The notes under the pieces: generated by a model
Told to the model about the DNA's origin: nothing
Seen by the model: the letters and a program-made list of their open reading frames with translations, nothing else
Databases searched by the model: none
Made by a program: the position numbers and the translations under genes
Source: Candidatus Latescibacterota bacterium
Lineage (GTDB): Bacteria > Latescibacterota > UBA2968 > UBA8231
Assembly (NCBI GenBank): GCA_965261395.1
Contig: OZ253462.1
Coordinates: forward strand, 782,889 to 846,888
DNA length: 64,000 bases
Direction of reading: 5' to 3'
Shown: positions 4,294-45,361 of the stretch, piece by piece
How the letters are laid out: each line of letters starts with the position of its first letter
Position numbering within the stretch: the first letter of the stretch is position 1

Positions 4294-4294
4294 T

Positions 4295-27313: not shown

Positions 27314-28357
27314 ATGACTACAACCTTTCGCATCGGCGTCACCCGCGACTTTCTCAAGGCCGACGACACCCTCGGCTTCGGCGACATTGGTCTCGACTTG
27401 CTCGACGAATCCCCCAAGGTCGAGTGGGAGTTTTTAGCGGAAAATACCACCGAGCTGCGCCCCGACCAGATTCGCGGCTACGACGGCTTGCTGGTTCTCG
27501 CCTCGACAGTCAGCGCCGAGACCTTGCAGGGAGCAGACAAGCTGGCGATCATCGCCCGCTTTGGCGTCGGCTACGACAGCGTTGACGTCGCAGCTTGCAA
27601 TGAGCAGGGCGTGCTCTTGACGATCACTCCCGACGGCGTGCGCCGGCCAGTGGCGGTCATGGCCCTGACGTATCTATTGGCCCTCAGCCACAAGATGCTG
27701 GCCAAGGATCGCTTGGTGCGCGAGGGCCGCTGGCACGAGCGCCTTGATTATATAGGCATGGGCGTCACGGACCGCACGCTGGGGCTGATCGGTCTGGGCA
27801 ATATCGGCCGCGAGATCTGCACCTTAGCCACGCCCTTCGGCATTCGCTGCATTGCCGCCGACCCTTTCGTCGATACTGAACAGGCGCACGCCGCTGGTGC
27901 CGAGCTGGTCGGGCTCGACCAGTTGCTGCAACGCGCAGATTATGTCTGCATCTGCTGCGCCCTCACCGACCAGACCCATCACCTCATCGGCGAGCGCGAG
28001 CTCTCACTGATGAAGGAAAGCGCCTACCTCATCAACACGGCTCGCGGCCCCATCGTCGATCAGCAGGCCCTTACCCGCGCCCTCCAACGGGGGCAGATCG
28101 CCGGTGCCGGCCTCGACGTCTTTGAAACAGAGCCTGTATCCCAGGACGAGCCGGTGCTGGCACTCACCGACCAAACCATCGTCGCCCCGCACGGGCTTTG
28201 CTGGACCGACGAGTGCTTCCGCCTCATCGGCCGCAGCGCCTGCCGCAGCCTCGTCGAAGTGGCATCCGGTCACCTGCCCCTGTACCTCGTCAACCCCCAG
28301 ACTGCAGAGCATCCCCGTTTCCAAGAAAAACTGAACCGCTATCGAGCTATCGGATGA
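27314..28357 (+). CDS. D-isomer-specific 2-hydroxyacid dehydrogenase family protein
   Basis: Start trimmed to ATG 27314. GLIGLGNIGREI NAD-binding motif, LINTARGPIVD and GAGLDVFETEP signatures. Confidence 0.85.
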   Translation: MTTTFRIGVTRDFLKADDTLGFGDIGLDLLDESPKVEWEFLAENTTELRPDQIRGYDGLLVLASTVSAETLQGADKLAIIARFGVGYDSVDVAACNEQGVLLTITPDGVRRPVAVMALTYLLALSHKMLAKDRLVREGRWHERLDYIGMGVTDRTLGLIGLGNIGREICTLATPFGIRCIAADPFVDTEQAHAAGAELVGLDQLLQRADYVCICCALTDQTHHLIGERELSLMKESAYLINTARGPIVDQQALTRALQRGQIAGAGLDVFETEPVSQDEPVLALTDQTIVAPHGLCWTDECFRLIGRSACRSLVEVASGHLPLYLVNPQTAEHPRFQEKLNRYRAIG

Positions 28358-29136
28358 AACCCAATAAAGTCAAACGCACCCTCAAAGAGGGCGGCACGGT
28401 CATCGGCACCATGACCTTTGAATTTTGCACTCCGGGCATTGCCCGTCTCTCTGCCGAGGCTGGCGCTGAATTCATTATGTACGACATGGAGCACACCGGC
28501 TGGAGCGTCGAGACAGTGCGCGACCTGATCGCCACCACCAATGCCGATCACATTGAGCCTTTGGTGCGGGTGCCGGCGACCCAATACCACTTCATCGCCC
28601 GCGTCCTCGACGTCGGGGCCCGGGGCGTCATGGTGCCGATGATTAGCGACGCGCAGCAGACCGAGGTCATCGTGCAGTCGGGCAAGTACCCGCCCATTGG
28701 CCAGCGCGGCGCAGCCTTCCAAATCGCCCACGACCACTTCGCCGAAGGCTCCATCATCGGCAAGATCGACCACGCCAATACCGAGGGCCTGCTGATCGCT
28801 CAGATCGAAAACCGCCCCGGGCTCGAAAACGTCGATCGCATCGCCGCGGTGGAGGGGATTGATGTGCTGTGGATTGGGGGTTTTGACTTGAGCAACTTCT
28901 TGGGGATTCCCGGGCAGTTTGACCACCCCGAATTCACCGCCGCCCTCGACCGCGTTGTCGATTCCTGCGAGCGCCACGGCAAGGCTGCTGGCTACTTGGT
29001 CAATACTATCGAGGAAGGAACGGAGATGCTGCGCCGAGGCTTTCGCTGCATAGCGTATGGCGGTGATTTATGGCTCTATCGCCGCGCCTTGGCCGAAGGC
29101 ATCGAAGGGCTGCGGACGAGCGTCTGGCGGCGGTGA
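28354..29136 (+). CDS. HpcH/HpaI-family aldolase (2-keto-3-deoxy acid aldolase-like)
   Basis: ATGA overlap with the upstream dehydrogenase gene. EFIMYDMEHTGWS, PLVRVP, GVMVPMI, AQIENRPGLENVDRIAAVEGIDVLWIG. Confidence 0.85.
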   Translation: MKPNKVKRTLKEGGTVIGTMTFEFCTPGIARLSAEAGAEFIMYDMEHTGWSVETVRDLIATTNADHIEPLVRVPATQYHFIARVLDVGARGVMVPMISDAQQTEVIVQSGKYPPIGQRGAAFQIAHDHFAEGSIIGKIDHANTEGLLIAQIENRPGLENVDRIAAVEGIDVLWIGGFDLSNFLGIPGQFDHPEFTAALDRVVDSCERHGKAAGYLVNTIEEGTEMLRRGFRCIAYGGDLWLYRRALAEGIEGLRTSVWRR

Positions 29137-29195
29137 TCGCAGAGACGCTATCCGTTTGGGTTAAGGCCACTCAACACAAATCAGGAGGTGAGAGT

Positions 29196-29432
29196 ATGGA
29201 CAATCGAATTACTATTGATCCTCAAGTGTATCACGGCCAAGCCTGCATTAAGGGGACTCGCCTTCCCGTGCATCAAATCCTCCGGATGCTCGCCAACGGG
29301 GATACCATCGAAGACCTACTTCAAGAATATCCTTCTCTAACATGGGAAGATATCCTCGCTTGCTTCGACTATGCAGCCTCACTGGCTGAAGAGCAAATGG
29401 CCCCTCTTGAAGTTCTCTCGGGCGAGGTATGA
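29196..29432 (+). CDS. DUF433-family antitoxin-like protein
   Basis: AGGAGG at 29183-29188. MDNRITIDPQVYHGQACIKGTRLPVHQILRMLANGDTIEDLLQEYPSLTWEDILACFDYA matches the DUF433 pattern. Confidence 0.8.
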   Translation: MDNRITIDPQVYHGQACIKGTRLPVHQILRMLANGDTIEDLLQEYPSLTWEDILACFDYAASLAEEQMAPLEVLSGEV

Positions 29433-29539
29433 AGATCTTGGTCGATGAGCACATCCCCCTCATGACGGTCCAAGCCTTGCCTATGATGGGGCATGACGTC
29501 CGCGAAAAAGACGCAGAGAAAAGACGCAGGAACGACTAG
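29429..29539 (+). pseudogene. truncated DUF5615/PIN-like toxin (36 codons)
   Basis: ATGA overlap with the DUF433 gene. MKILVDEHIPLMTVQALPMMGHDVRE matches the N-terminus of DUF5615 toxins, but the ORF stops after 36 aa (TAG 29537-29539). Confidence 0.55.
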
Positions 29540-29548
29540 GGATCAGAC

Positions 29549-29701
29549 CTATACGCATAGCCGAGCTCGCCGCGATGTGGTCTTTGCTCTGTTGGTTGGG
29601 TGTTTTTCCAACCGCTGTTCCACTCGGTCAATCACCTCGTGAATAACCGTGTGAGCCAGTTGGTTTGTGTCGCGTGATCTTTTGGGCTTATTCTTGGACA
29701 T
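29549..29701 (-). CDS. possible small basic protein (50 aa)
   Basis: MSKNKPKRSRDTNQLAHTVIHEV... The basic N-terminus followed by a DxNQLA motif resembles small proteins often seen near TA loci. It is below the ORF-track size cutoff. Confidence 0.3.
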   Translation of the reverse strand: MSKNKPKRSRDTNQLAHTVIHEVIDRVEQRLEKHPTNRAKTTSRRARLCV

Positions 29702-29760
29702 GCTATAAATATGGGTAGTGTCCCAACACCAAGTAAGCAGATTTCACAGGGAAGACTTAA

Positions 29761-30024
29761 ATGTATCTAAGCGACCTATTGGATGCTCTCGATAATGGTA
29801 AGCCTATTGAACTGTCAAGACGTGAACTCATCGAGATTTTTCAAAAGCAGAAGCCCTTAAATGACAGCCAACGTCTCGCCTTGTTCCATAGATTGGAACT
29901 CCGCGACCGAGACCGAGAGTGGCCCTTTGAGAAAGAACGCCTGACACAAAAAGAGGTAGCAGAGAAAACAGGTGTATCTCTTGAACTTGTGAAACAGTAT
30001 GACGCTGGAAATCTGTCCGTCTAA
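29761..30024 (+). CDS. small HTH-containing protein
   Basis: 87 aa. LTQKEVAEKTGVSLELVKQY looks like a helix-turn-helix. Lies in the low-GC islet. Confidence 0.5.
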   Translation: MYLSDLLDALDNGKPIELSRRELIEIFQKQKPLNDSQRLALFHRLELRDRDREWPFEKERLTQKEVAEKTGVSLELVKQYDAGNLSV

Positions 30025-30122
30025 AAGGTTGGCAACCCGTTTAATGGCATCAAGTATATAATTCCCATTTCAAAATAGGCGACTACCAGGAAATCTTAAA
30101 GCCCATAGAGAGGAAGAACCAC

Positions 30123-30341
30123 ATGAACAGAAAAGATTTTGATGCTTGTGCCTGTGAATTGTCTGATAGGGTTGGGGAGATTCGAATGGAGGTAAGTAAA
30201 CTTGCCAAGAAGGCGCGTAATACCTCCTTAGAGGGAGCAGTGGGTTTAGATCCGGCTGCCGCCCTAGACGAACTGGATGAATTACTAGAGGAGGTCGCTA
30301 ACTCCTTGTACGTGACCTTCAAAACCGAAGACGAAATGTAA
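30123..30341 (+). CDS. hypothetical small acidic protein
   Basis: 72-aa ORF with an AGAGAGG-type Shine-Dalgarno sequence upstream. The antisense 95-aa ORF is low-complexity and less likely. Confidence 0.4.
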   Translation: MNRKDFDACACELSDRVGEIRMEVSKLAKKARNTSLEGAVGLDPAAALDELDELLEEVANSLYVTFKTEDEM

Positions 30342-30363
30342 AACCCATAACTTATCATTCCGG

Positions 30364-30413
30364 ATTTCAAAATAGACCACTACCTCAAAATAGGTAGTGG
30401 TCTATTTTGAAAT
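30364..30413. repeat. perfect inverted repeat (22-bp arms, 6-nt loop) built from the islet motif
   Basis: ATTTCAAAATAGACCACTACCT - CAAAAT - AGGTAGTGGTCTATTTTGAAAT, located 23 bp after the stop of 30123..30341. Confidence 0.9.
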
Positions 30414-30637
30414 TGGGCATAGTCGCTGGCCACGTCTTTATTGAGCCGCGCCGGGGCCGGTGGCCTCCCCTGAGCCTTGCTCGGCTGCTGGCTGCCGGTC
30501 GCCGCGATCGCGGCCGCTGAAAGTCAAAGAGAGACACTACCAAAAAAGGAGACCGCAACGCAATTAGCCGATCCTCGAACGAATTTCAAAAAGGATTAGA
30601 CCTGTGGCTATACTTCAGGCACACAAGGAGAGTTCAA

Positions 30638-31012
30638 ATGAACTACGAAGATATTATCCAAGACTTGAGCGAGTATGTCGAGCGATTTGATTGCAAGAAG
30701 CAATACAAGCGGAGGAAAACAATACTTCAAATATATCGACTATTAGACAATAGACCTTCGGGCGGCGATTTCCGAAGGCAGTGGGGTTGGGAAGTAGTAG
30801 GGGAAATTCGCCAAGCTGGTAAAGGTCCGGCAACGATTGTGAACGTAACCCCTGACGCACCGCACTACATAAAGTCGCTGGAAGGCGATACCCAAGAAAA
30901 CTTCCCCATACTCCAGAACAAAATCCGTTGTAAAGCGTTTCGGCACGAAGCCAAAAAAGTGTTCAGAAACTATTTGTCAGCCGAGATAAAACAGCTTGAA
31001 GATGACGGCTAA
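30638..31012 (+). CDS. hypothetical protein
   Basis: 124-aa ORF with AAGGAG 8 nt upstream of the ATG. No recognisable family. Confidence 0.5.
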   Translation: MNYEDIIQDLSEYVERFDCKKQYKRRKTILQIYRLLDNRPSGGDFRRQWGWEVVGEIRQAGKGPATIVNVTPDAPHYIKSLEGDTQENFPILQNKIRCKAFRHEAKKVFRNYLSAEIKQLEDDG

Positions 31013-31080
31013 TCAGGCAGGCAGATTTCAAATAGACCACCCATAACTTGACGCGTCATCTCACAACCGGAGGCAATGCT

Positions 31081-31629
31081 ATGAAGATCGCCAGTTACGT
31101 CCTGTTGGGCCTTTTATCTTGCGTCGAGGTCTTGGCCGGAGAGACCGCCTTTGATAGAGCCGTTGAAGCCTATCGGACCTACAAGAAAGCCCAGCACGCC
31201 TATTTTGAAGCCATCGACGCCCACGAAGAAACTAGGCTGGCTTGGGATGCTTATTGGGCCACAGACCGAGCCGATGACGAAGCCCATAAGAAAGCCGAGG
31301 CCGCTTGGGAGGAAGCCAGAGACACAAATAAAGAAGTCAAAGGCGCCTATGCGATTTTTAGTATAACCGGAAAAGCTGCTTTTGAAGCCGTAGACGCGAT
31401 TGAAGAAGTCAAGCTAGCCCTTGCCGCTTTTGATGAAGCCGAACGCGCCGTTGAAGACGCTCAAGATGCTTGGTTTAACGCCAAAGGCCCCCGTGAAGCC
31501 TATTATTTGACCGCCCTCAATGAAGCCCATGCCGCCCTTGATGAAGCCAGCGACACCTACCTTGCAGTCAGGGAAGTCTTTGATGAAGCCATCAAAAAAG
31601 CCTACGAGAGGGGCGAAAAAAACCATTGA
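31081..31629 (+). CDS. secreted alpha-helical repeat protein
   Basis: Start trimmed to ATG 31081 (GGAGG at 31069-31073). Signal peptide MKIASYVLLGLLSCVEVLAG, then repetitive A/E/D/K-rich helices (AYxxFEAIDA..., FEAVDAIEE..., ALDEASDTY...). Confidence 0.6.
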   Translation: MKIASYVLLGLLSCVEVLAGETAFDRAVEAYRTYKKAQHAYFEAIDAHEETRLAWDAYWATDRADDEAHKKAEAAWEEARDTNKEVKGAYAIFSITGKAAFEAVDAIEEVKLALAAFDEAERAVEDAQDAWFNAKGPREAYYLTALNEAHAALDEASDTYLAVREVFDEAIKKAYERGEKNH

Positions 31630-31654
31630 TAAGGCTTGCTGACCCAGTTCCGAT

Positions 31655-31683
31655 CCCCCTTGGCAAGAACCGTGCCAAGGGGG
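31655..31683 (+). terminator. stem-loop after the secreted-protein gene
   Basis: CCCCCTTGGCA - AGAACCG - TGCCAAGGGGG (11-bp perfect stem), followed by CTGATTTT. Confidence 0.55.
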
Positions 31684-31781
31684 CTGATTTTCGCAGCTTA
31701 TTTCAAACTGACCCAGTTCCGAATGAAAAATAAAAAGGCCGCCGTGTAAGGGCGGGTCCCATCGTTAGTCCACTAGCTGGC

Positions 31782-32570
31782 CTATTCGCCCTCCAGCGCC
31801 CGCCGCATCGCATCGCCTTGATCGCGCCAATACCCGTACAGCACGGCTATATCCGTGCCAACGCAGAAGTGCCGCACCCCCATGTCGAGAAAGCGCTTGG
31901 CATCGTCGGCTGTGTTGATCTCGGCGCGCGGGTGGACGCCCATCTCCAAGGCCGTCTTAAAGACCTTCTCTTCGGCTGCGGCAATTTCCGGTGCGCCGCG
32001 CTGGCCGGCCTTGCCGACGCTCATGGAGTAATCGGCCCCTCCCCACTGGACCATCTCGACTCCTTCTACCGAGAGCATGGCTTCTAGGTCGGCGACGGCA
32101 GTTTTCTTTTCAATCATCAAAACCACGACCACGTCGCGCAGGGCTTGGACGTACTCCGGGGTACCGCCATAGCTCATATAGGCGAAGCGCCGCATGGCTA
32201 CCCCATAGGTGCCTTCGTCCCCGGGCGCGTCGGCGCGCACGCAGCGCACACAGGCCCGCGCGTCGTCTGGGTCGCGCACATCGGCAAACAGTACGCTGCC
32301 GAAGCCCGACCCTATGGCCCGTTGGGCCACATAAGCGCGGTTCTCGGCATCGACCTTGATCATCGTTCCCAAATCCCATAGCTCGGCGGCTCGGGCGAGG
32401 TTGTCCAAGTCGTGCAGGTCGAAGGGGGCGTACTCGGCGACAAATTCCACATAGTCGTACGCGCCGGTATGCCCTAGTGCTTCGACGACCGAAGGCCAAG
32501 TGGTGTGGATGTGGGTAGCGAGTGTCGGCTCGCCGGCATTGAGCTTTTCGCGCAGCTTGTTGGGTCTCAT
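31782..32570 (-). CDS. HpcH/HpaI-family aldolase
   Basis: Start trimmed to ATG 32568-32570 (MRPNKLREKLNAGEPTLATH). DYVEFVAEYAPF, VLMIEKKTAVADLEAMLSVEGVEMVQWGGADYS. Confidence 0.85.
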   Translation of the reverse strand: MRPNKLREKLNAGEPTLATHIHTTWPSVVEALGHTGAYDYVEFVAEYAPFDLHDLDNLARAAELWDLGTMIKVDAENRAYVAQRAIGSGFGSVLFADVRDPDDARACVRCVRADAPGDEGTYGVAMRRFAYMSYGGTPEYVQALRDVVVVLMIEKKTAVADLEAMLSVEGVEMVQWGGADYSMSVGKAGQRGAPEIAAAEEKVFKTALEMGVHPRAEINTADDAKRFLDMGVRHFCVGTDIAVLYGYWRDQGDAMRRALEGE

Positions 32571-32583
32571 AGTTCCTTTCCTT

Positions 32584-33555: not shown

Positions 33556-33710
33556 CTTCTATTTTCTCCTTTAGTAGAATTCCGTGCGGCAGGGCAAGCT
33601 AAGGAAGAGGGTAGCTGTTATCAAGTGGCGTCATTGGCCGCGCCGCACCGCCTTTCTATATTAAGCGCTGCGCTGTACACACCCCGCATCACAGGAGTGG
33701 CTCAACCCCA

Positions 33711-33995
33711 ATGGACGCACCCCGCCAACGCCTGCTCTACTTGCAGGCGCGCACCCCTAGCGTCATGTCCAATATCATCGGTCTAACGCTCATCGAGCCG
33801 GTCGCGGGCTTTGCGCCCGAAATCCACGCCGAAACAGCACCCGATTGGCCCTACGAAACCGTACACGACGCCGTAGTTGACGGCTGGCAAATCGTCCAAT
33901 TTCCTCACCTCCAGGCCCCGTTCGACGACAGGGAATTGGACGTGATAGGCTATGAATTTATCCTACAGAAAATGGAGGTTATTGCCGATGGATAA
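33711..33995 (+). CDS. small hypothetical protein overlapping the start of the downstream PhyH gene
   Basis: 94-aa ORF (alternative ATG at 33765). Its 3' end overlaps the PhyH start at 33988 by 8 nt. No family recognised. Confidence 0.45.
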   Translation: MDAPRQRLLYLQARTPSVMSNIIGLTLIEPVAGFAPEIHAETAPDWPYETVHDAVVDGWQIVQFPHLQAPFDDRELDVIGYEFILQKMEVIADG

Positions 33996-34767: not shown

Positions 34768-34795
34768 TCCCAACCCCTAGCAGAGAAAGCATTTT

Positions 34796-35473: not shown

Positions 35474-35488
35474 AAGAAAGGGGCTCCA

Positions 35489-36622: not shown

Positions 36623-36752
36623 CACCAGCGCAGGAATAAATCTGAGATAGGTTCTATAGCAGAGTTGAACGATTCGAGATGCGGATCATCTTGTGCATGC
36701 TATTCTGCGTCCATCTGCGTCCATCTGCGGATCATCAATTAGGAAACCCACC

Positions 36753-38876: not shown

Positions 38877-38877
38877 G

Positions 38878-39759: not shown

Positions 39760-39784
39760 CCAATTGCTCCTTAAGTGATCTGTG

Positions 39785-40645: not shown

Positions 40646-40682
40646 ATTCTCTCCTCTAAGTCGCCCTGCGTTTATGCCTAGC

Positions 40683-41696
40683 TTATCCATACACCATCTG
40701 TATCAATGCCCGAATATACCCAATGGCATACGCCTTCCCGTACAACGACCCGTACCCATGTGGAAAAGACGGCGTGTGGTCCATCATATACGGCCCATTA
40801 AACCCATTATCGCGATATACTTCCATCGCGCGCCGCATATCCACTTCCCCCTCATCCAAGAACACCTCGGTAAATCGCGGCAACTGCCCGCGTACATTGC
40901 GGAAATGCACCCATGCGATTTTGTCCTTTGCAGCCATCTCGGCGATTGCGTCGTAGATCTTTTCCGGCCCTAGCAACTCGGTCATGCACCCCTGGCAAAA
41001 GAGCATGCAATTGCTGTCGCTTGGCGCGATCTTGAAGAAGATCCTGCGGAACTGCTCCATGGTCGAACAAATCTGCGCCACGCCCCCTAGCGGCTCGGGA
41101 ATCGGCGGGTCGTCCGGGTGCAGGGCCATCCGCACCCCCGCCTTTTCGGCCGCGGGGATCGCCGCCGCTAGAAATCGCTCCATCCGCGCCCACATCTGCG
41201 CTTCGTCCACTGGAGGCTCGTGTGGTTCGGGCCGGTTTTTAGCAAAAACTGCGTAGTCGAACGTACTGTATTTCACGCCGCCTCTACCCGTATCCGCAGG
41301 GGTGCGAAAATTGCCCATGGGTTTGAAATTCCAGCCCACGCAGGGAATACCGGCTTGGCCCACGCTCTCCAGCATCTTGCACCAGTGGCCGATCTTCTCG
41401 TCCATGTCCTCCTCGGCCAAGGTGATCTCCTCCCAAGCAGGCATGAAGATATTGTTCAGCTTCATGCCGTGCGCCTCAATCTTTTCCCGCGCCTGCGCCA
41501 ACGTGTCGGTGCAGTCCTTGCCGGCCTTTAAATCCTGTGCCAGCGACGTATTCGCCGAGCCGGTACCGCTCCGACGCCCGGCGACGGGCGCTCCTCCACG
41601 CAACTCCAGATGGACTGAGTCCACCCCGATCGCGCGAAAAAAGCTCAGATGCTCGTCGTCGAGTTCGCCGATGGAAATTTGGTCTTGGATATACAT
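40683..41696 (-). CDS. uxuA: mannonate dehydratase (short UxuA form)
   Basis: AEKAGVRMALHPDDPP, CSTMEQF, WVHFRNV, GEVDMRRAMEVY and MMDHTP parallel the E. coli UxuA blocks VGVRMAVHPDDPP / FTHLRS / GDVDMYEVV / MRPDHG. Confidence 0.8.
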   Translation of the reverse strand: MYIQDQISIGELDDEHLSFFRAIGVDSVHLELRGGAPVAGRRSGTGSANTSLAQDLKAGKDCTDTLAQAREKIEAHGMKLNNIFMPAWEEITLAEEDMDEKIGHWCKMLESVGQAGIPCVGWNFKPMGNFRTPADTGRGGVKYSTFDYAVFAKNRPEPHEPPVDEAQMWARMERFLAAAIPAAEKAGVRMALHPDDPPIPEPLGGVAQICSTMEQFRRIFFKIAPSDSNCMLFCQGCMTELLGPEKIYDAIAEMAAKDKIAWVHFRNVRGQLPRFTEVFLDEGEVDMRRAMEVYRDNGFNGPYMMDHTPSFPHGYGSLYGKAYAIGYIRALIQMVYG

Positions 41697-41744
41697 CCGC
41701 CGCTTTCTTTGTTGACCGCAACCCTCCGCGTCAATACCTGTTTA

Positions 41745-42662
41745 TCATCCGGCGACCGGCCGATCCCGCTGATTTTGTCCGCCGTAGCGGAAGCCCGGCA
41801 CGTTGTCGGCGCAGTAGGTTCCGCGGAAGAGGGTCTGCCGCATCGGTGGCATCTGCTCGACGAGTTCGGCCGGTGGCGACCACGAGCTCCAGCGCGAGCC
41901 AACGCTATTGTAGAGGTTGAAGATGCCCACCCGCTCGTTGTCGGCATTGGTCCACGGAGAGGTGCTGTGCGCCAGGGCCTCGGTAAAAAACAATACCGAC
42001 CCAGCCGGGCACTCGTATGTTTCCCACACCGCCGAATGCGGGTCCTGAATGGCGGCGGGCGAGGGGTATGCGGCCTTATGGCTCCCCGTGGCTAAGAGCG
42101 TGCCGCCCTGTCTCATTTTGACCGGTGCTAGCTCCCACACCACCCGCGTCAACCCGCTAAAGGACTTGCCGGGAATACTCTGGTAGTGATGCGAATCTAC
42201 AGCAAAGCGAAAGAAGCCGCTGCCGTTGTGCGGTTTGAAAACGCCCTCCCGCTCGGGGGTCGCCGCTGGGTTGCGCAAGCCACTGCCCTCCATGCGAAAC
42301 CCGTAGCACTCGGCGCTCGATAGCCCAGGAAACGCCAGAAACTCGTTGAGGAAGCCCACTACCACCGGATGATCGGTCAGCTTCTCCAGCGGCCCGGCCA
42401 CAAAGGAACGCTCGTGTTCCGGCAGCGACTCCGGGTGCTGCTGCACGCGCAATGCGTACTCGCGCATGGCTTCAATCTCGTCGTCGGCCAATACCCCGGG
42501 CACCAAGAGCCACCCGCGGACATCGAAGAGGTATTTCTGCTCGTCGGTCAGCTCGGCGACCGGTTCGCCATCGGCGTTTTTTTGCGGTAGGTCGCCTTCC
42601 TCCAACAGCAACGGCTGCCCTAGATTCTTATCTACTACGTATGCTTCGCTCATCTTGTGCAT
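41745..42662 (-). CDS. PhyH-like dioxygenase, GDGG-PGSHK subgroup without obvious HxD
   Basis: EQKYLFDVRGWLLVPGVL, KPHNGSG at the expected HxD position, VWELAPVKMRQGGTLLATGSHK, distal His in EALAHSTSPW. Confidence 0.75.
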   Translation of the reverse strand: MHKMSEAYVVDKNLGQPLLLEEGDLPQKNADGEPVAELTDEQKYLFDVRGWLLVPGVLADDEIEAMREYALRVQQHPESLPEHERSFVAGPLEKLTDHPVVVGFLNEFLAFPGLSSAECYGFRMEGSGLRNPAATPEREGVFKPHNGSGFFRFAVDSHHYQSIPGKSFSGLTRVVWELAPVKMRQGGTLLATGSHKAAYPSPAAIQDPHSAVWETYECPAGSVLFFTEALAHSTSPWTNADNERVGIFNLYNSVGSRWSSWSPPAELVEQMPPMRQTLFRGTYCADNVPGFRYGGQNQRDRPVAG

Positions 42663-42688
42663 CCTCCTTTTCGCGGTGCATCTAGGAC

Positions 42689-42994
42689 CTACTCGGCCTT
42701 GGGGAATGGGCCGGGCGGCGTCTTATTGGTTCCATCCACCTCGTATTCGTCCGCCGGAAACGCCGTGCATAAGAACTTGCGAAAGCGCTGTGCTCGCGCC
42801 TCGGGCGTATCGCCCATCGGATCCATGGGGTCGGCGTCCGTGCGTACGTTCTCTGGCTCGGGCGTGTACAGGATGTTCTTGATCACCCCGCGCATCTCTG
42901 CCGCTTGGTCGGCCGTCGCGACCCCAGGCACTGTGAAATAGCCCTTCTCTTCCCACGTTTGGACTTGGGCTTGGGTGGGTTGCCAGCTTTTCAT
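42689..42994 (-). pseudogene. N-terminal fragment of a PhyH-family gene
   Basis: 101-aa ORF. PTQAQVQTWEEKGYFTVPGVATADQAAEMRGVI and ARAQRFRKF resemble the first 75 aa or so of PhyH proteins. No HxD or PGSH region follows. Confidence 0.45.
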
Positions 42995-43006
42995 GCGTCC
43001 TCCATC

Positions 43007-44146
43007 TCAGTGCTCTTCAACTACCAGCGAGCTGAATTTATCCTCGTCCCACTCCGCGCCCCAACCCGGCCCATCCGGGGGCGCGATGTGCCCTTCTTCA
43101 ATCAAGGGCGCGTTGAGCAAACCCCACCGCGCCCCGGTCTGCCGCAAGCTGTCGGCCGTTGCCCCGAAAAACTCGTAGAAATCCGTGTTGTCGATACAGC
43201 AGCCCAAGTGCGCGTGGACCAGCCCATCCAACGCCCCGCCGCCATTCAGTTCGATATTCGCGCCGTGCAGCTCGGCCAGATGCGCCAGCTTCAGCACCTG
43301 CGTCGTCCCGTGCCGGGCATTGCCCCGCAGGCGATCGGTCGCCCCTTGGATCAGCCATTGCGCCGTCAAGTCGATGTCGTGCATCAGCATCTCGGTGCCC
43401 ATCACCGGAATGGTCAACGCTCGGCACAACTCCTGATATTGATTCATCTTCTGCTCGTGCATCGGCTCTTCCAACCACACAAAATCCAGTTCCTCCAGCA
43501 CCCTCCCCACTTCAAGGGCCTCGCGCAAGTCATAGGAACACACTGGATCGGTGATCAACTCGTAATCCGGCCCCACGGCGTCCCGCACGGCCCTGTAAAT
43601 GGGGATATCGGCCTTGCCTCCTTTATAGGTGTGAAACTTGTACGCCCCAATACCCATCCCCTTGCCGGTCTCTATGGCCCTGAGATAGCCCTCTATGTCC
43701 GTATCTCCGCCGGTCAGATACGCGGGTAGCCGCGGCCGCACGCGCCCCACCAACGCATAGACCGGTAGCCCCGCAGTCTTGCCCAAAATGTCCCACAGAC
43801 AGTTGTCAAACGCCCCAAACCAACCCGGGGGCTGGTACACCCACCGAGTTCCCTTCCAAAACTGCTGAAACAACTCCTCGCGCTCCCAAGGGCTCCGCCC
43901 CACCGAGTGATACCGCACGATGTCGGCCTGATAGGGAGTCATCGACGTATCGCTGCGGCCCACGATCCCCTCGTCCGTATGCACCTCCAAAAAGCTCTGC
44001 CGCACCGGGCGCAATTCCTGATCGGGTCTGCCCCTATGCGTGTACTGTGTCCTCCTCAGCCCCTCTACCCGCGCGATACTATGGCCGACGCTCCCCTTGC
44101 GGCTTGGGTCTTCCAACACCAGCAATTTCACCGCAGTGATTTTCAT
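43007..44146 (-). CDS. enolase-superfamily enzyme (MR/MLE family)
   Basis: MKITAVKLLVLE, VHTDEGIVGRSD, CLWDILGKTAGLPVYALVG, VWLEEP. Confidence 0.85.
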   Translation of the reverse strand: MKITAVKLLVLEDPSRKGSVGHSIARVEGLRRTQYTHRGRPDQELRPVRQSFLEVHTDEGIVGRSDTSMTPYQADIVRYHSVGRSPWEREELFQQFWKGTRWVYQPPGWFGAFDNCLWDILGKTAGLPVYALVGRVRPRLPAYLTGGDTDIEGYLRAIETGKGMGIGAYKFHTYKGGKADIPIYRAVRDAVGPDYELITDPVCSYDLREALEVGRVLEELDFVWLEEPMHEQKMNQYQELCRALTIPVMGTEMLMHDIDLTAQWLIQGATDRLRGNARHGTTQVLKLAHLAELHGANIELNGGGALDGLVHAHLGCCIDNTDFYEFFGATADSLRQTGARWGLLNAPLIEEGHIAPPDGPGWGAEWDEDKFSSLVVEEH

Positions 44147-44224
44147 GTTCGTCTCCTTTATCGGCGAATTTGAGTACCCTATATTTCATTTCCTCCCGAC
44201 GACTGTCAACCTCAGAGACCTATT

Positions 44225-45361
44225 ATGAAAATCGCCGCTATTGAAACCTTCGACCTCACCTGCCCCCTTGAACGCCCCTTTGGCTGGTCCCAAGGCTGGA
44301 TCGACCAGCGCAGCACCACGCTCGTCAAAGTCTCCACGGACGACGGCCTCGTCGGCTGGGGCGAAGGCGCGGCCGCCGGTCTCATCGACGGCTTGCTCGC
44401 CCCGCTGCTCATCGGCCAAGACCCCATGGACCGCGCGGGGCTGTGGGAGCGCATGTTCCACGCCCTCTACAACGGCAATAACGCGGTCGGCCTAGCCGGC
44501 AGCGCCCTTTCCGCGCTCGACATTGCCCTTTGGGATCTCGCGGGCAAAGCCACCGGCCTCCCGGTCTGCGCCCTCCTCGGCGGCAAGGTCCGCGATAAAG
44601 TGGCCGTCTATGCCACCGGCCTCTACTATACCGAAGGCGAGTTTCCCGACCGCCTGCTCGACGAGGCGCGGGGCTATGTGGCCGCAGGCTTCAAGGGGAT
44701 GAAGACCAAGGTCGGGGGGCTATCCATCGCCGAGGATGTTGCGCGCGTCAGGGCGCTACGCGAGGCCATCGGCCCGGACATTCATCTCATGGTCGATGCC
44801 AACGAAGCCTACAACGCCACCACGGCGATTCGCCTTGGCCAGAAGCTGGCCGAGCTGGATCTGGTGTGGTTTGAAGAGCCGGTCAACGCCCAAGACTTGG
44901 ACGCCTATTTGGAAATCAAAGCGGCGCTACCCATGGCCATTGCCGGCGGCGAAAACCTGCGCACTCGCTACGAATTCAAGCCCTATCTGACGCGCCGCGC
45001 CTACGACATTGTCCAGCCCGACATCATGCACTGCGGCGGCATCACCGAAATGCAGCGCATCTGCGCCATGGCCAATGCCTGCGGCATTCAGGTCAACCCC
45101 CACGTCTGGGGATCGCCCGTTATGATCGCCGCCACTTTGCATCTAGCCGCCACCTTGCCGCCCTGCCCGCCAGCACGCAACGCCCAACCCTATATGCAGG
45201 AGCCGGTGATGGAATTCGACCGCACGCCGAGTGCCATCCGTCAAGAACTATGCGCGGTGCCGTTTGACCAAGAGGACAGCTTTGTGCTCGTGCCGACCGG
45301 GCCGGGATTGGGGATTGAGGTGGATGAAGAGGTGGTCGGGAATTTGCGGGCCTCTCGGTGA
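44225..45361 (+). CDS. enolase-superfamily enzyme (MR/MLE family)
   Basis: MKIAAIETFDL, VSTDDGLVGWGEG, ALWDLAGKATGLPVCALLGG, MVDANEAY, VWFEEP, VQPDIMHCGG. Confidence 0.9.
   Translation: MKIAAIETFDLTCPLERPFGWSQGWIDQRSTTLVKVSTDDGLVGWGEGAAAGLIDGLLAPLLIGQDPMDRAGLWERMFHALYNGNNAVGLAGSALSALDIALWDLAGKATGLPVCALLGGKVRDKVAVYATGLYYTEGEFPDRLLDEARGYVAAGFKGMKTKVGGLSIAEDVARVRALREAIGPDIHLMVDANEAYNATTAIRLGQKLAELDLVWFEEPVNAQDLDAYLEIKAALPMAIAGGENLRTRYEFKPYLTRRAYDIVQPDIMHCGGITEMQRICAMANACGIQVNPHVWGSPVMIAATLHLAATLPPCPPARNAQPYMQEPVMEFDRTPSAIRQELCAVPFDQEDSFVLVPTGPGLGIEVDEEVVGNLRASR

What the first reader, a model, noticed from the sequence alone, without database searches (positions are those of the whole stretch)
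27314..45361. Redundant non-phosphorylative sugar-acid catabolic modules, each with embedded dioxygenases
**Module A (31782..37151)**
- HpcH aldolase, aldo/keto reductase, a small ORF and a PhyH dioxygenase.
- A beta-propeller protein that could be a lactonase.
- An enolase-superfamily dehydratase and RidA.

This matches the dehydrogenase, lactonase, dehydratase and aldolase order of non-phosphorylative deoxy-sugar and pentose routes. In the L-rhamnose and L-fucose routes, for example, the dehydratase is an enolase-superfamily enzyme and the aldolase is of the HpcH type.

**Module B (37152..45361)**
- IlvD/Edd dehydratase, HpcH-like aldolase, PhyH, UxuA and a PhyH variant.
- A PhyH fragment, two enolase-superfamily enzymes and an EamA transporter.

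**Module C (27314..29136)**
This couples a 2-hydroxyacid dehydrogenase to another HpcH aldolase through an ATGA overlap.

**Hypothesis**
The dioxygenases pre-process decorated sugars or sugar acids so that they can enter these dehydratase/aldolase routes. Possible reactions include oxidative removal of O-methyl or other alkyl groups, or hydroxylation of deoxy positions. Glycan-active genes elsewhere in the window fit a glycan-scavenging lifestyle: the BNR sialidase-like gene at 164, the GH42-like gene at 2281 and the DUF4038-like gene at 52474.
Basis: inference. Interest (0 to 1): 0.65.

Follow-up and report, generated by a model that had tools for sequence, protein, structure and literature searches.

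The report
Sugar-acid breakdown island with embedded oxygenases
A marine, probably sponge-associated bacterium (candidate phylum Latescibacterota) carries a conserved ~19-kb gene island in which kinase-free sugar-acid breakdown enzymes are interleaved with iron/2-oxoglutarate oxygenases of unknown function, which links a known but unexplained oxygenase expansion in sponge symbionts to carbohydrate catabolism.

Summary
Every domain call in 27.3-46.3 kb was reproduced, including the ATGA overlap, the small ORF and the PhyH fragment. Only the "GH42-like" gene outside the region found no support.

The sugar-acid reading holds at residue level:
- Eno_A has the galactonate-dehydratase signature.
- Eno_B2 has the catalytic set of the lactone and anhydro-sugar cycloisomerases AtGCI and DauB.
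- The IlvD protein sits with L-arabinonate dehydratases.
- No enolase member has a muconate-cycloisomerase, OSBS or dipeptide-epimerase signature.

- 15 Latescibacterota species representatives keep the module B array. About 11 keep A and B together, and 6 also have C abutting A.
- Eno_B1 and PhyH_B2 travel together in a Dehalococcoidia MAG.
- Orthologues of PhyH_B1 (65-94% identical across several phyla) sit among sugar enzymes in three different layouts.

Several corrections apply:
- The modules are old, divergent parallel sets, not redundant copies.
- Module C has no oxygenase.
- PhyH is not special to these modules: the window holds 13 PhyH genes.
- HpcH_B, Eno_B1 and PhyH_B2 each lack a canonical catalytic residue.
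- The lactonase call is weak.

The chemistry of the oxygenases remains untested. I classify this as a new variant of a known kind.

The parts
27302..28357 (+). Module C: D-isomer-specific 2-hydroxyacid dehydrogenase (glyoxylate/hydroxypyruvate reductase-like)
   Evidence: Pfam 2-Hacid_dh_C at 186 bits. The best NCBIfam matches are PGDH and glyoxylate reductase, both below their cut-offs. It directly abuts module A in relatives L015, L019, L020 and L023.
28354..29136 (+). Module C: canonical HpcH/HpaI class II pyruvate aldolase (HpcH_C), joined to the dehydrogenase by an ATGA overlap
   Evidence: Pfam HpcH_HpaI at 109.5 bits. The ATGA lies at 28354-28357. YfaU residues H49, R74, E153 and D179 are all conserved.
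29137..31781 (.). Lineage-specific insertion of about 2.6 kb with lower GC (DUF433 protein and unknown ORFs) that separates modules C and A; not part of the pathway
   Evidence: GC is 0.51-0.56. DUF433 was found and there are no other Pfam hits. The insertion is absent in L015, L019-L021, L023 and L024, where HpcH_A and HpcH_C are adjacent.
31782..32570 (-). Module A: HpcH-family protein (HpcH_A) with non-canonical H49->Y and R74->K
   Evidence: Pfam at 56 bits; alignment to YfaU. A terminator-like hairpin lies just downstream at 31755-31739 (not above chance).
32584..33555 (-). Module A: aldo/keto reductase (AKR_A), upstream of HpcH_A in the same transcription unit
   Evidence: Pfam Aldo_ket_red at 252 bits. 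No NCBIfam equivalog cut-off is reached.
33711..33995 (+). Small conserved protein (94 aa, no known family), partner of PhyH_A; it overlaps the PhyH_A start by 8 nt
   Evidence: 69% identity to ORFs immediately upstream of PhyH_A orthologues in L097 (Chloroflexi bacterium TSY) and L098, and 91% in L011.
33988..34767 (+). PhyH_A: canonical Fe(II)/2OG oxygenase of the PhyH family
   Evidence: Pfam PhyH at 56 bits. The WHQD and WHGT..N motifs are kept in 119 of 119 orthologues.
34796..35473 (+). Short beta-propeller (225 aa); a lactonase or lyase role is possible but unproven
   Evidence: Weak Pfam matches to Vgb_lyase (39.6 bits, below the 50 cut-off), SGL and PQQ_2. Similarity to Vgb lyase in the PDB is at blade level only. 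The 225-aa length is conserved in relatives.
35489..36622 (+). Eno_A: enolase-superfamily, GalD-type acid-sugar dehydratase signature
   Evidence: Residues D183, H185, E209, E235, D258 and H285 of E. coli DgoD are all conserved. NCBIfam galactonate dehydratase scores 271.5 bits (cut-off 311). The best PDB match is 2qq6, of unknown function.
36753..37151 (+). RidA-family protein, last gene of the module A plus-strand unit, convergent with IlvD
   Evidence: Pfam Ribonuc_L-PSP at 120.6 bits. Called as a 132-aa gene.
37152..38876 (-). IlvD/Edd-family Fe-S sugar-acid dehydratase (pentonate/hexonate type), last gene of the module B operon
   Evidence: NCBIfam PRK06131 at 916 bits (passes) and the L-arabinonate dehydratase model at 851 bits (cut-off 882). 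PDB scores are 826 bits for 8ej0, 751 for 5j83/9evv L-arabinonate dehydratase, about 310 for true DHADs and 180 for Edd. The motifs CNTW, GCDK, HCMTMGTA and GRMSG are read from the sequence.
38878..39759 (-). HpcH_B: divergent HpcH-like protein that lacks the catalytic Arg
   Evidence: Pfam at 49.8 bits, on the C-terminal part only. The best PDB matches are HpaI and YfaU at 41-42 bits. R74 is replaced by T, while H49, E153 and D179 are kept.
39785..40645 (-). PhyH_B1: canonical PhyH-family oxygenase, a very conserved orthogroup spread over several phyla
   Evidence: H128-x-D130, H210 and R221 are invariant. Orthologues are 65-94% identical in MAGs labelled Latescibacterota, Gemmatimonadota, Poribacteria, Planctomycetota and Caldilineaceae/Chloroflexota, always among sugar-related genes.
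40683..41696 (-). UxuA-like (mannonate-dehydratase-like) TIM-barrel protein, immediately upstream of PhyH_B1
   Evidence: Pfam UxuA at 134.5 bits and AP_endonuc_2. NCBIfam mannonate dehydratase scores 120 bits (cut-off 191). The PDB match 3ban aligns over the C-terminal half and retains HPDDPP, HxRNV and DH. Orthologues sit next to or near PhyH_B1 in L005-L012, L032 and L036.
41745..42662 (-). PhyH_B2: PhyH-fold protein without the canonical HxD/E; it has 'PHNG' plus the distal His and Arg
   Evidence: PHNG is present in 117 of 117 orthologues. Distant relatives keep only PH-x-[G/A/V]. The AF2 model has pLDDT 90.9 and its best PDB match is HygX. It is linked to an Eno_B1 orthologue in the Dehalococcoidia locus L096.
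42689..42994 (-). Remnant of a 282-aa PhyH gene (in-frame internal deletion)
   Evidence: 90.5% identity over 74 aa and 67% over 27 aa to the full-length L011:7166-8014. The gene is full-size in most of L013-L026, and absent in L019 and L027.
43007..44146 (-). Eno_B1: enolase-superfamily member that keeps the metal ligands but lacks the His-Asp dyad; first gene of the module B operon
   Evidence: Beta-6 D is replaced by N and beta-7 H by N. The same holds in the 71.5%-identical orthologue of L096. The best PDB match is 1rvk/4hcd at only 121 bits.
44225..45361 (+). Eno_B2: enolase-superfamily member with the AtGCI/DauB cycloisomerase catalytic set, divergent from Eno_B1
   Evidence: 43% identity to AtGCI 4ggb. 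K166, D194, E220, E246, H296 and W298 are conserved and D87 is replaced by N. The EnoB2(-)/EnoB1(+) divergent pair is conserved in metagenome loci.
45358..46284 (+). EamA/DMT-family transporter, co-transcribed with Eno_B2 (4-nt overlap)
   Evidence: Pfam EamA at 119.6 bits. Conserved next to Eno_B2 in L013, L015, L016, L019-L021, L023, L024 and L101.

Best explanation
The region is a conserved catabolic island of a marine, probably sponge-associated Latescibacterota bacterium. It has five transcription units:
- 2-hydroxyacid dehydrogenase then HpcH_C.
- AKR_A then HpcH_A.
- small ORF, PhyH_A, propeller, Eno_A, RidA.
- Eno_B1, PhyH remnant, PhyH_B2, UxuA-like, PhyH_B1, HpcH_B, IlvD.
- Eno_B2 then EamA.

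It encodes several parallel, non-identical, kinase-free routes. These take sugars, lactones or aldonic/uronic-type acids to 2-keto-3-deoxy acids, and then to pyruvate plus a small aldehyde.
- The dehydration or ring-opening steps would be done by metal-dependent enzymes of three superfamilies: enolase, IlvD/Edd and UxuA-like.
- The cleavage would be done by HpcH-type class II aldolases.
- The redox trimming would be done by the AKR and the 2-hydroxyacid dehydrogenase.

The PhyH-family Fe(II)/2-oxoglutarate oxygenases are pathway components that act on the free sugar-derived small molecules. Most likely they hydroxylate a C-H that carries or neighbours a blocking group (a deoxy carbon, or an O-alkyl, amino or sulfo-type substituent). 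The product can then be reduced or dehydrated by the neighbouring enzymes.

Shown:
- Family membership of the proteins.
- Presence or absence of catalytic residues.
- Operon layout and the absence of any kinase.
- Conservation of the gene linkage within and across phyla.

Inferred:
- The direction of the pathway (catabolic).
- The identity of the substrates.
- That the oxygenases work on pathway intermediates, and which reaction they perform.
For: Family and residue evidence:
- Eno_A has the full GalD set.
- Eno_B2 has the AtGCI/DauB set at 43% identity.
- IlvD clusters with L-arabinonate dehydratase.
- The UxuA-like protein retains the UxuA motifs.
- HpcH_C is fully canonical.
- PhyH_A and PhyH_B1 keep HxD...H and Arg in 119 of 119 and 119 of 120 orthologues.
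- No kinase domain occurs in 27-46 kb.

Linkage evidence:
- The module B array (Eno_B2 to IlvD) is kept in 15 GTDB species representatives. About 11 of them also carry module A within the fetched flank, and 6 have module C abutting A. A reduced array is kept in 2 more distant genomes.
- An Eno_B1 orthologue (71.5%) and a PhyH_B2 orthologue (70%) are linked in a Dehalococcoidia MAG.
- 13 of 16 metagenome loci with an Eno_B1 homologue of at least 68% identity and enough flank carry PhyH-family ORFs downstream. L103 repeats EnoB2/EnoB1...PhyH_B2-UxuA-like-PhyH_B1.
- PhyH_B1 orthologues occur in three other layouts, all sugar-related. One is SDR, UxuA-like, RmlC, PhyH, CurA-like reductase and SASA. 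Another, in about 30 Caldilineaceae genomes, is a sugar-type ABC transporter, enolase, Gfo/Idh/MocA and PhyH.
- PhyH_B2 orthologues sit near rhaM plus enolase, or near GH4, GH123, DHDPS and Gfo/Idh/MocA.

Precedents:
- The same enzyme toolkit (COG4948, COG3836, COG0667 and dehydrogenases) is proposed, with growth data on fucose, rhamnose and their acids, to form parallel non-phosphorylative pathways in SAR202 (PMC10444878).
- SqoD/SquF shows a Fe/2OG dioxygenase plus a reductase removing a substituent from a sugar in catabolism (PMC10507154).
- The closest fold match of PhyH_B2 is HygX, which acts on a glycoside.
Against: - No substrate or activity has been tested.
- The window has 13 PhyH genes among about 58 genes. 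Adjacency to any gene class is therefore expected here.
- Much of the synteny is within one clade and could be simple vertical inheritance.
- For PhyH_A, only the small ORF is conserved at distance.
- PhyH_B2 and the 282-aa PhyH are dispensable in some species (L019, L027, and this window).
- HpcH_B, HpcH_A and Eno_B1 lack canonical catalytic residues.
- In the alternative PhyH_B1 layout, one neighbour is a bona fide RmlC (245.9 bits against a cut-off of 155.75), which is a biosynthetic enzyme.
- No regulator or glycoside hydrolase lies inside the island.
Confidence: 0.45

Rival explanations
1. The sugar-acid modules are real and self-sufficient, but the PhyH genes are bystanders. Under this reading the window is part of a PhyH-rich genomic region of a lineage with a massive PhyH expansion. 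The oxygenases would act on unrelated substrates such as phosphonates, lipids, osmolytes or host-derived amines. Their adjacency would be kept only by descent or by co-transfer of whole islands.
For: - There are 13 mutually divergent PhyH paralogues (18-43% identity) scattered over the whole 64 kb next to very different genes.
- PhyH is the most abundant Pfam family in Poribacteria, with only a PhnY-like function assigned (PMC3909097).
- PhyH_A keeps only the small ORF as a neighbour in distant genomes.
- PhyH_B2 and the 282-aa PhyH are lost in some species without loss of the dehydratases.
Against: - Co-occurrence recurs in different gene orders and different phyla, which descent alone does not explain. 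Examples are Eno_B1 with PhyH_B2 in Dehalococcoidia, PhyH_B1 inside an operon-like ABC-enolase-Gfo/Idh/MocA unit in Caldilineaceae, and PhyH ORFs downstream in 13 of 16 metagenome loci.
- The PhyH genes lie inside tightly packed same-strand units, with gaps or overlaps of a few bases.
Confidence: 0.27
2. The island degrades non-sugar carboxylates, for example hydroxylated or N-modified amino acids, betaines, ectoine-like osmolytes or opines from the host or from algae. Under this reading the enolase members would act as racemases, epimerases or amino-acid-derivative dehydratases. The PhyH enzymes would be amino-acid-type hydroxylases, and RidA would quench imines.
For: - RidA is in module A.
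- Fold matches of PhyH_B2 include EctD and proline hydroxylases.
- PhyH_B1 has a weak hit to ectoine hydroxylase.
- Eno_B1 lacks the sugar-dehydratase dyad.
- An octopine-dehydrogenase-like gene, an aminotransferase and GNAT genes lie elsewhere in the window.
Against: - Eno_A and Eno_B2 carry acid-sugar dehydratase and cycloisomerase residue sets, not those of cis-3-hydroxyproline dehydratase or of epimerases.
- IlvD is nearest to L-arabinonate dehydratase.
- The UxuA-like protein and three HpcH proteins are typical of keto-deoxy sugar acids.
- Distant contexts include sugar ABC transporters, rhaM, glycoside hydrolases and Gfo/Idh/MocA.
Confidence: 0.15
3. The genes are biosynthetic or modifying rather than catabolic. 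Under this reading they would tailor an unusual sugar or a glycosylated natural product.
For: - The best structural match of PhyH_B2 is the biosynthetic oxygenase HygX.
- A true RmlC sits next to PhyH_B1 in one layout.
Against: - The island has no glycosyltransferase, nucleotidyltransferase, PKS/NRPS or NDP-sugar enzymes.
- Aldolases and three classes of sugar-acid dehydratase are hallmarks of catabolism.
- The fold scores are modest (TM 0.55-0.68) and similar for many PhyH-fold enzymes.
Confidence: 0.05

Closest known systems
Parallel non-phosphorylative sugar and sugar-acid pathways built from paralogue sets in SAR202 (Lim et al. 2023, PMC10444878; Saw et al. 2020, PMC6946804)
   Same: - The toolkit is the same: enolase-superfamily dehydratases (COG4948), HpcH/HpaI aldolases (COG3836), AKR-type oxidoreductases (COG0667) and dehydrogenases.
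- There are several parallel sets and no kinases.
- Both are marine. One orthologous Eno_B1-PhyH_B2 pair is even found in a Dehalococcoidia MAG.
   Different: - This case is in Latescibacterota, not Chloroflexota.
- IlvD/Edd and UxuA-like dehydratases are added.
- PhyH-family oxygenases are interleaved, and those papers do not connect such oxygenases with sugar pathways. A term search for 'dioxygenase' in PMC10444878 gave 0 hits. Landry 2017 reads PhyH as phytanoyl alpha-oxidation.
Weimberg/Dahms and non-phosphorylative L-rhamnose and L-fucose routes (RhmD/YfaU in E. coli; LRA1-4; own knowledge)
   Same: - The logic is the same: dehydrogenase, then lactonase, then dehydratase, then 2-keto-3-deoxy-acid aldolase.
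- The dehydratase is an enolase-superfamily or IlvD-type enzyme and the aldolase is an HpcH-type enzyme.
   Different: - No protein reaches an NCBIfam equivalog cut-off for any of these enzymes.
- Two of the three HpcH proteins are non-canonical.
- The lactonase is not identified.
- Oxygenases are not part of the classical routes.
PhyH-domain expansion of Poribacteria (Kamke et al. 2014, PMC3909097)
   Same: - There is a very high density of diverse PhyH genes of unknown function.
- Orthologues of PhyH_B1 and PhyH_B2 occur in Poribacteria MAGs.
   Different: - That paper gave no genomic-context explanation apart from a PhnY/PhnZ-like pair.
- Here specific PhyH orthogroups are tied to sugar-acid enzymes, and the expansion is seen in Latescibacterota.
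AtGCI (D-galactaro-1,4-lactone cycloisomerase, 4ggb/4hpn) and DauB (3,6-anhydro-D-galactonate cycloisomerase, 5olc) (PMC5698469)
   Same: - Eno_B2 is 43% identical to AtGCI.
- It keeps K166, D194, E220, E246, H296 and W298.
   Different: - The pocket residue D87 is Asn.
- The substrate is unknown.
- The partner enzymes of those pathways (uronate dehydrogenase; DauA, DauC and DauD) are not present.
SqoD/SquF sulfo-ASDO pathway (PMC10507154, PMC12951627)
   Same: A Fe(II)/2OG dioxygenase removes a substituent from a free sugar in a catabolic pathway and is paired with an NAD(P)H reductase.
   Different: - SqoD belongs to the TauD family (PF02668), not to PhyH (PF05721).
- No sulfite exporter or SquF homologue was identified here.
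Sugar-acting PhyH-fold oxygenases of secondary metabolism (HygX, 4xc9/4xcb; SnoN, 5erl; KanJ from own knowledge)
   Same: - They share the PhyH fold.
- HygX is the top Foldseek match of the PhyH_B2 model, at E 5e-13.
- Their substrates are carbohydrates.
   Different: - Identity is only about 20% and TM is 0.55-0.68.
- Those enzymes are biosynthetic and have a normal HxD/E triad.
- PhyH_B2 lacks the carboxylate.
Fe(II)/2OG halogenases (SyrB2, WelO5, BesD) and the 2-His enzyme AspH (own knowledge)
   Same: The HxD/E carboxylate is replaced by Gly, Ala or Val in the PhyH_B2 family. The motif is PH-x-G in 117 of 117 orthologues.
   Different: - No halogenase appears among the 50 best structural matches.
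- The ligand assignment is uncertain, because hhalign places the canonical motif on R152-F-A154.
- The genomic context is catabolic.

Membership tests
Enolase superfamily, mandelate-racemase subgroup acid-sugar dehydratases | Three carboxylate metal ligands at the ends of beta-3, beta-4 and beta-5 (D183, E209 and E235 of E. coli DgoD) | tested here: met
   Conserved in Eno_A, Eno_B1 and Eno_B2 in the alignment with DgoD.
Enolase superfamily, mandelate-racemase subgroup acid-sugar dehydratases | His (beta-7) and Asp (beta-6) dyad as general base | tested here: met
   Eno_A (PDI, PHN) and Eno_B2 (PDI, PHVW) keep the dyad. For Eno_B1 the feature is NOT met: D is replaced by N and H by N. The same is true in its L096 orthologue.
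D-galactonate dehydratase (GalD/DgoD) | D-x-H at beta-3 (H185 general acid), and a score above the curated equivalog cut-off | tested here: inconclusive
   Eno_A has IDLHGR, but NF010624 scores 271.5 bits against a cut-off of 311. The best PDB match, 2qq6, has no assigned function.
   Beta-6 is Asp (Eno_A, Eno_B2) or Asn (Eno_B1). The MLE, OSBS and epimerase models score far below the acid-sugar dehydratase models.
AtGCI/DauB-type cycloisomerases | K166 base, H296 acid, D194/E220/E246 metal ligands, and W298 and D87 in the pocket (PMC5698469) | tested here: inconclusive
   Eno_B2 keeps K166, D194, E220, E246, H296 and W298, but D87 is replaced by N. Identity is 43%. Activity cannot be tested here.
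IlvD/Edd sugar-acid dehydratases (L-arabinonate or D-xylonate type) | Both IlvD/Edd domains, the Cys motifs for the Fe-S cluster, the catalytic Ser, and closer similarity to pentonate dehydratases than to DHAD or Edd | tested here: met
   - Pfam scores are 373.6 and 223.1 bits.
- The motifs CNTW, GCDK, HCMTMGTA and GRMSG are read from the sequence.
- PDB scores are 751 bits for 5j83/9evv, about 310 for DHADs and 180 for Edd.
- The L-arabinonate equivalog cut-off is narrowly missed (851 against 882). The subfamily model PRK06131 passes.
HpcH/HpaI class II pyruvate aldolases (YfaU, HpaI) | Metal ligands E153 and D179 | tested here: met
   Invariant in HpcH_A, HpcH_B and HpcH_C.
HpcH/HpaI class II pyruvate aldolases (YfaU, HpaI) | Catalytic Arg74 and His49 | tested here: not met
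   The feature is met only by HpcH_C. HpcH_A has Lys and Tyr. HpcH_B has Thr at the Arg position, with His kept. The roles of R74 and H49 are taken from own knowledge of the YfaU and HpaI literature.
UxuA mannonate dehydratase | Full-length match above curated cut-offs; metal-site motifs | tested here: inconclusive
   The Pfam UxuA score of 134.5 bits is above the gathering score, but only the C-terminal half aligns. The NCBIfam score is 120 bits against a cut-off of 191. The motifs HPDDPP, HFRNV and DH are present.
PhyH-family Fe(II)/2OG oxygenases | HxD/E...H facial triad plus Arg that binds the 2OG C5 carboxylate | tested here: met
   - PhyH_B1: H128, D130, H210 and R221 are invariant.
- PhyH_A: WHQD and WHGT..N are kept in 119 of 119 orthologues.
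- PhyH_B2: NOT met. It has no acidic residue at +2, but the distal His232 and Arg244 are invariant.
Fe(II)/2OG halogenases | HxA/G in place of HxD/E; a halide-binding site; the closest structures are halogenases | tested here: inconclusive
   The PH-x-G motif is conserved. The top 50 Foldseek matches are hydroxylases, cyclases and epimerases, not halogenases. Profile alignment disagrees about the motif register. Halide binding cannot be tested here.
SMP-30/gluconolactonase (SGL) lactonases | Six-bladed propeller of about 290-300 aa with metal-binding residues; a score above the gathering threshold with a defined domain | tested here: inconclusive
   The protein is only 225 aa. The SGL score is 32.1 bits with no stretch passing on its own, and Vgb_lyase scores 39.6 bits against a cut-off of 50. 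Only blade-level PDB matches were found.
Non-phosphorylative (kinase-free) sugar-acid route | No sugar or keto-deoxy-acid kinase in the cluster; an aldolase acting on the non-phosphorylated keto-deoxy acid | tested here: met
   No kinase family was found among the ORFs of 27.3-47.6 kb. HpcH-type, not KDPG-type, aldolases are present. Aldolase specificity cannot be tested here.

The most novel reading that the evidence does not exclude
PhyH_B2 and Eno_B1 form a new two-enzyme unit that is co-inherited across phyla.
- PhyH_B2 is a PhyH-fold enzyme family that universally lacks the iron-binding carboxylate (PH-x-G/A/V).
- Eno_B1 is an enolase-superfamily protein that keeps its metal site but has lost the His-Asp base.

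In this reading a 2-His iron centre, possibly dependent on halide, installs a leaving group on an unactivated carbon of a deoxy or branched sugar acid. That leaving group would be a halogen or a hydroxyl. Eno_B1 then eliminates it. This would be cryptic halogenation or hydroxylation used for catabolism, which would be a new strategy for opening recalcitrant marine carbohydrates.
Probability: 0.06. Interest if true: 0.88.

Novelty: new variant of a known kind. Interest (0 to 1): 0.6.

Why it matters
Two puzzles meet in this island.
- Sponge symbionts such as Poribacteria carry a very large number of PhyH oxygenase genes, and nobody has explained why (PMC3909097).
- Slow-growing marine heterotrophs carry many parallel kinase-free sugar-acid pathways, thought to unlock semi-labile algal carbohydrates (PMC10444878).

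If the PhyH enzymes work on sugar-derived intermediates, the expansion would be an oxidative toolkit. It would strip or repair decorated, deoxy or otherwise blocked sugars that ordinary dehydratases cannot handle. That bears on the turnover of marine dissolved organic carbon and on host-glycan use in sponges.

Fe/2OG oxygenases are rare in central carbon catabolism (a point made in PMC10507154).

The island also supplies concrete targets that can be expressed and tested:
- PhyH_B1, which is 65-94% conserved over several phyla.
- The small-ORF and PhyH_A pair.
- The carboxylate-less PhyH_B2 with the dyad-less Eno_B1.

Tried and rejected
- **AlphaFold of PhyH_B1.** The prediction on a shallow 12-sequence alignment failed (pLDDT 34.6), so there is no structural comparison for it.
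- **Model coordinates.** Coordinates of the good PhyH_B2 model are not exposed. The geometry of H145, G147, D156, H158 and H232 could therefore not be measured. Sequence and profile evidence on the ligand register conflict.
- **PDB sequence searches.** PhyH_A gave nothing and PhyH_B1 gave only a marginal hit to human PhyH.
- **Promoter and terminator scan.** It was not above the shuffled expectation, so operon borders rest on spacing and strand only.
- **Rfam.** There were no hits in the window.
- **First look-up of PhyH_B1.** It failed because the longest ORF starts upstream of the called start. The 286-aa form was used afterwards.
- **Exclusive sponge origin.** I considered this and rejected it. 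Several orthologue-bearing MAGs carry pelagic-looking sample labels such as TaraRedSea and 3000m, and one locus is a TARA scaffold.
- **PhyH_B1 always next to the UxuA-like gene.** I considered this and rejected it. L056 and L063 lack the UxuA-like gene at that position, and Caldilineaceae have an enolase plus Gfo/Idh/MocA instead.
- **'GH42-like' for 2281-4386.** Rejected for lack of any match.
- **No genome-wide background.** Only 20-kb loci are available. A formal enrichment statistic for PhyH next to sugar-acid genes could not be computed.

Full report
**1. What is there**

Module C:
- A D-2-hydroxyacid dehydrogenase lies at 27302-28357.
- A HpcH aldolase lies at 28354-29136. The two are joined by a true ATGA start/stop overlap.

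Module A consists of two divergent units:
- On the minus strand, an aldo/keto reductase (32584-33555) is followed by HpcH_A (31782-32570).
- On the plus strand there is a 94-aa ORF (33711-33995), PhyH_A (33988-34767), a 225-aa beta-propeller (34796-35473), Eno_A (35489-36622) and RidA (36753-37151).

Module B is one tightly packed minus-strand unit, read in the direction of transcription:
- Eno_B1 (43007-44146)
- a 101-aa PhyH remnant (42689-42994)
- PhyH_B2 (41745-42662)
- a UxuA-like protein (40683-41696)
- PhyH_B1 (39785-40645)
- HpcH_B (38878-39759)
- an IlvD/Edd dehydratase (37152-38876)

A divergent unit, Eno_B2 (44225-45361) with EamA (45358-46284), lies next to it. No kinase and no regulator lies in the island.

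**2. Whose genome it is**

- Identical proteins occur on long-read metagenome contigs.
- The nearest species-level genome is a 7.3-Mb 'Candidatus Latescibacterota' MAG chromosome, OZ244561.1. Its island proteins are 94-99% identical to those of the window.
- Many orthologue-bearing MAGs are labelled Poribacteria or Caldilineaceae, or carry names such as 'Chloroflexi bacterium TSY'.
- That these are sponge-symbiont lineages is my own knowledge. It is in line with PMC3909097 and PMC13200403.
- Some carry pelagic-looking sample labels (TaraRedSea, 3000m), and one locus is a TARA scaffold.

**3. Residue-level assignment**

*Enolase-superfamily proteins.* They were aligned with E. coli DgoD.
- Eno_A keeps all GalD residues: D183, H185, E209, E235, D258 and H285.
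- Eno_B2 is 43% identical to the galactarolactone cycloisomerase AtGCI. It keeps K166, D194, E220, E246, H296 and W298, the residues named for AtGCI and DauB in PMC5698469. Pocket residue D87 is Asn.
- Eno_B1 keeps the three metal ligands but has Asn in place of both members of the His-Asp dyad. Its 71.5%-identical orthologue in a Dehalococcoidia MAG shows the same substitutions.
- None has the beta-6 Lys of the muconate-cycloisomerase, OSBS or epimerase subgroup.

*IlvD.* It scores 826 bits against 8ej0 and 751 bits against L-arabinonate dehydratase. It scores about 310 against true dihydroxy-acid dehydratases and 180 against Edd.

*HpcH proteins.* They were compared with YfaU.
- All three keep the metal ligands.
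- Only HpcH_C keeps the catalytic Arg and His.
- HpcH_A has Lys and Tyr at those positions.
- HpcH_B has Thr at the Arg position.

*UxuA-like protein.* It matches mannonate dehydratase over its C-terminal half and retains the metal-site motifs. It scores below the curated cut-offs.

*Propeller.* It shows only blade-level similarity to Vgb lyase and SGL proteins. 'Lactonase' stays a guess.

**4. The oxygenases**

The window holds 13 PhyH-domain genes among about 58 genes. They include two PhyH-HEAT fusions and a tandem triple. They are only 18-43% identical to one another, so they are old paralogues and not recent copies. Such an expansion is on record for Poribacteria and has not been explained (PMC3909097).

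PhyH_A and PhyH_B1 have the normal HxD...H plus Arg in essentially all orthologues.

PhyH_B2 is different.
- All 117 orthologues carry 'PHNG'.
- More distant relatives keep only PH-x-G/A/V, the distal His and the Arg. The family therefore lacks the usual carboxylate ligand.
- A confident model (pLDDT 90.9) resembles HygX most closely. It then resembles FtmOx1, SptF, EctD, proline hydroxylases and SnoN. No halogenase is among the top 50 matches.
- The register of the motif is not settled.

The 101-aa 'fragment' is an in-frame deletion remnant of a 282-aa PhyH that is intact in relatives.

**5. Is the linkage conserved?**

*The whole island.*
- 15 species-representative genomes (PhyH_B1 89-94% identical) keep the module B array.
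- About 11 of them also keep module A within the fetched flank.
- In six of them module C directly abuts module A. The 2.6-kb lower-GC stretch at 29.1-31.8 kb in the window is therefore an insertion.
- Two more distant genomes (79-81%) keep Eno_B2, PhyH_B2, UxuA-like, PhyH_B1 and HpcH_B; one of the two also keeps Eno_B1.

*PhyH_B1.* It is unusually conserved (65-94%) across MAGs labelled Latescibacterota, Gemmatimonadota, Planctomycetota, Poribacteria, Caldilineaceae and other Chloroflexota, which suggests lateral spread. Its neighbours differ but are sugar-related in each layout.
- One layout is SDR, UxuA-like, RmlC, PhyH, CurA-like enone reductase and SASA esterase.
- In about 30 Caldilineaceae genomes the layout is a sugar-type ABC transporter, an unknown 641-aa protein, an enolase-superfamily protein, Gfo/Idh/MocA and then PhyH.

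*PhyH_B2.* It is linked to an Eno_B1 orthologue in a Dehalococcoidia MAG. Elsewhere it lies near rhaM plus an enolase, or near GH4, GH123, DHDPS and Gfo/Idh/MocA.

*Searching from the enolase side.* This was a metagenome scan with an Eno_B1 alignment.
- Homologues of at least 68% identity almost always have Eno_B2 divergently upstream.
- 13 of 16 loci with enough flank carry PhyH-family ORFs downstream.
- L103 repeats EnoB2/EnoB1...PhyH_B2-UxuA-like-PhyH_B1.
- At 50-65% identity the association fades. The contigs there are mostly short.

*PhyH_A.* The only neighbour conserved at distance is the small ORF, which is 69% identical. This defines a new two-gene unit.

*Variability.* PhyH content varies between species. 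L027 lacks PhyH_B2 and the 282-aa PhyH, L019 lacks the latter, and the window has only its remnant. On one strain's 2-Mb contig an IS element replaces module A next to IlvD.

**6. Interpretation**

The dehydratase and aldolase core fits the concept of parallel non-phosphorylative sugar and sugar-acid catabolism. That concept was proposed, with growth data, for cultured SAR202 using the same protein families (PMC10444878).

What is new here is the repeated, cross-phylum embedding of PhyH-family oxygenases. The papers read here do not connect PhyH with these pathways.

I consider it most likely (about 0.45) that the oxygenases act on sugar-derived small molecules of these routes.
- Hydroxylation at a carbon that carries or neighbours a blocking group, followed by reduction or dehydration by the neighbours, is the simplest chemistry.
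- It has a precedent in the SqoD/SquF pair (PMC10507154). SqoD belongs to another 2OG family, and nothing here identifies the substituent.

The main rival (about 0.27) is that the PhyH genes are bystanders in a PhyH-rich island. A non-sugar carboxylate pathway (about 0.15) and a biosynthetic role (about 0.05) are less likely.

**7. Verdict**

- This is a new variant of a known kind. It has moderate to high interest, because it gives the unexplained PhyH expansion a testable metabolic context.
- It also points to two odd, conserved enzyme pairs: the small ORF with PhyH_A, and the dyad-less Eno_B1 with the carboxylate-less PhyH_B2.

Noticed in passing
window 4295-5089, 8251-9693, 9727-10503, 10503-11357, 25185-26615, 49595-50476, 51689-52447, 54604-55371, 61713-63212: Nine further PhyH-domain genes lie outside the finding, making 13 in the 64 kb. 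They include a tandem triple and are only 18-43% identical to one another. The window as a whole is a PhyH hot-spot.
   Followed up: partly
window 8251-9693 (-) and 25185-26615 (+): Two proteins fuse an N-terminal PhyH domain to C-terminal HEAT/PBS-lyase-type repeats and are 43% identical to each other. Their PhyH parts are the closest paralogues of PhyH_A (38-39%). One lies divergently next to a sodium:solute symporter (23334-25094).
   Followed up: no
window 33711-33995 with 33988-34767; L097:7701-8795; L098:7696-8795: A 94-101-aa protein with no known family lies immediately upstream of PhyH_A orthologues in different phyla (69% identity) and overlaps or abuts the PhyH start. This looks like an obligate partner or subunit.
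   Followed up: partly
window 41745-42662, 10503-11357, 49595-50476: Three PhyH paralogues form a subgroup (25-28% identity) without the canonical HxD/E. In the PhyH_B2 family the motif is PH-x-G/A/V throughout, as in 2OG halogenases or the 2-His enzyme AspH.
   Followed up: partly
window 29137-31781: An insertion of about 2.6 kb with lower GC carries a DUF433 protein and unknown ORFs. One small ORF has a weak HTH or sigma-70 region 4 match. The insertion splits modules C and A, which are adjacent in six related genomes.
   Followed up: partly
window 16923-18050 and 20650-21573; GC dip at 18-22 kb: There are two transposase genes (an rve integrase type and a DDE_Tnp_1 type) in a low-GC stretch (0.48-0.52). 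A related rve element replaces module A next to IlvD on a 2-Mb contig of a near-identical strain (L003).
   Followed up: no
window 13244-16975 (-) and 46402-47583 (+): A 1243-aa protein with He_PIG and FlgD-Ig domains and a Por_Secre_tail (type IX secretion sorting signal) is present. A PorV/PorQ-like outer-membrane protein lies directly after the EamA gene. These hint at T9SS-exported cargo near the island.
   Followed up: no
window 50735-52447; L101:2701-5493; L103:3076-4932: An unknown 294-aa protein (50735-51619) and the PhyH at 51689-52447 form a pair. In two metagenome contigs the pair sits right beside EamA-EnoB2/EnoB1, so it probably belongs functionally with module B.
   Followed up: partly
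Its nature is unknown.
   Followed up: yes
L013-L092 (PhyH_B1 orthologues): PhyH_B1 is 65-94% identical across MAGs assigned to at least five phyla. This is much higher than expected for vertical descent and suggests lateral spread among marine and sponge-associated bacteria. Some MAG labels, for example Gemmatimonadetes for L016, may be binning or taxonomy errors.
   Followed up: no
window 7041-8135, 11396-12842, 47677-49474, 58908-60953: Other metabolic genes are interleaved with PhyH genes. They are an octopine/nopaline-dehydrogenase-like protein, a cupin, two GNAT acetyltransferases, a class V aminotransferase and a PQQ-dependent dehydrogenase.
   Followed up: no
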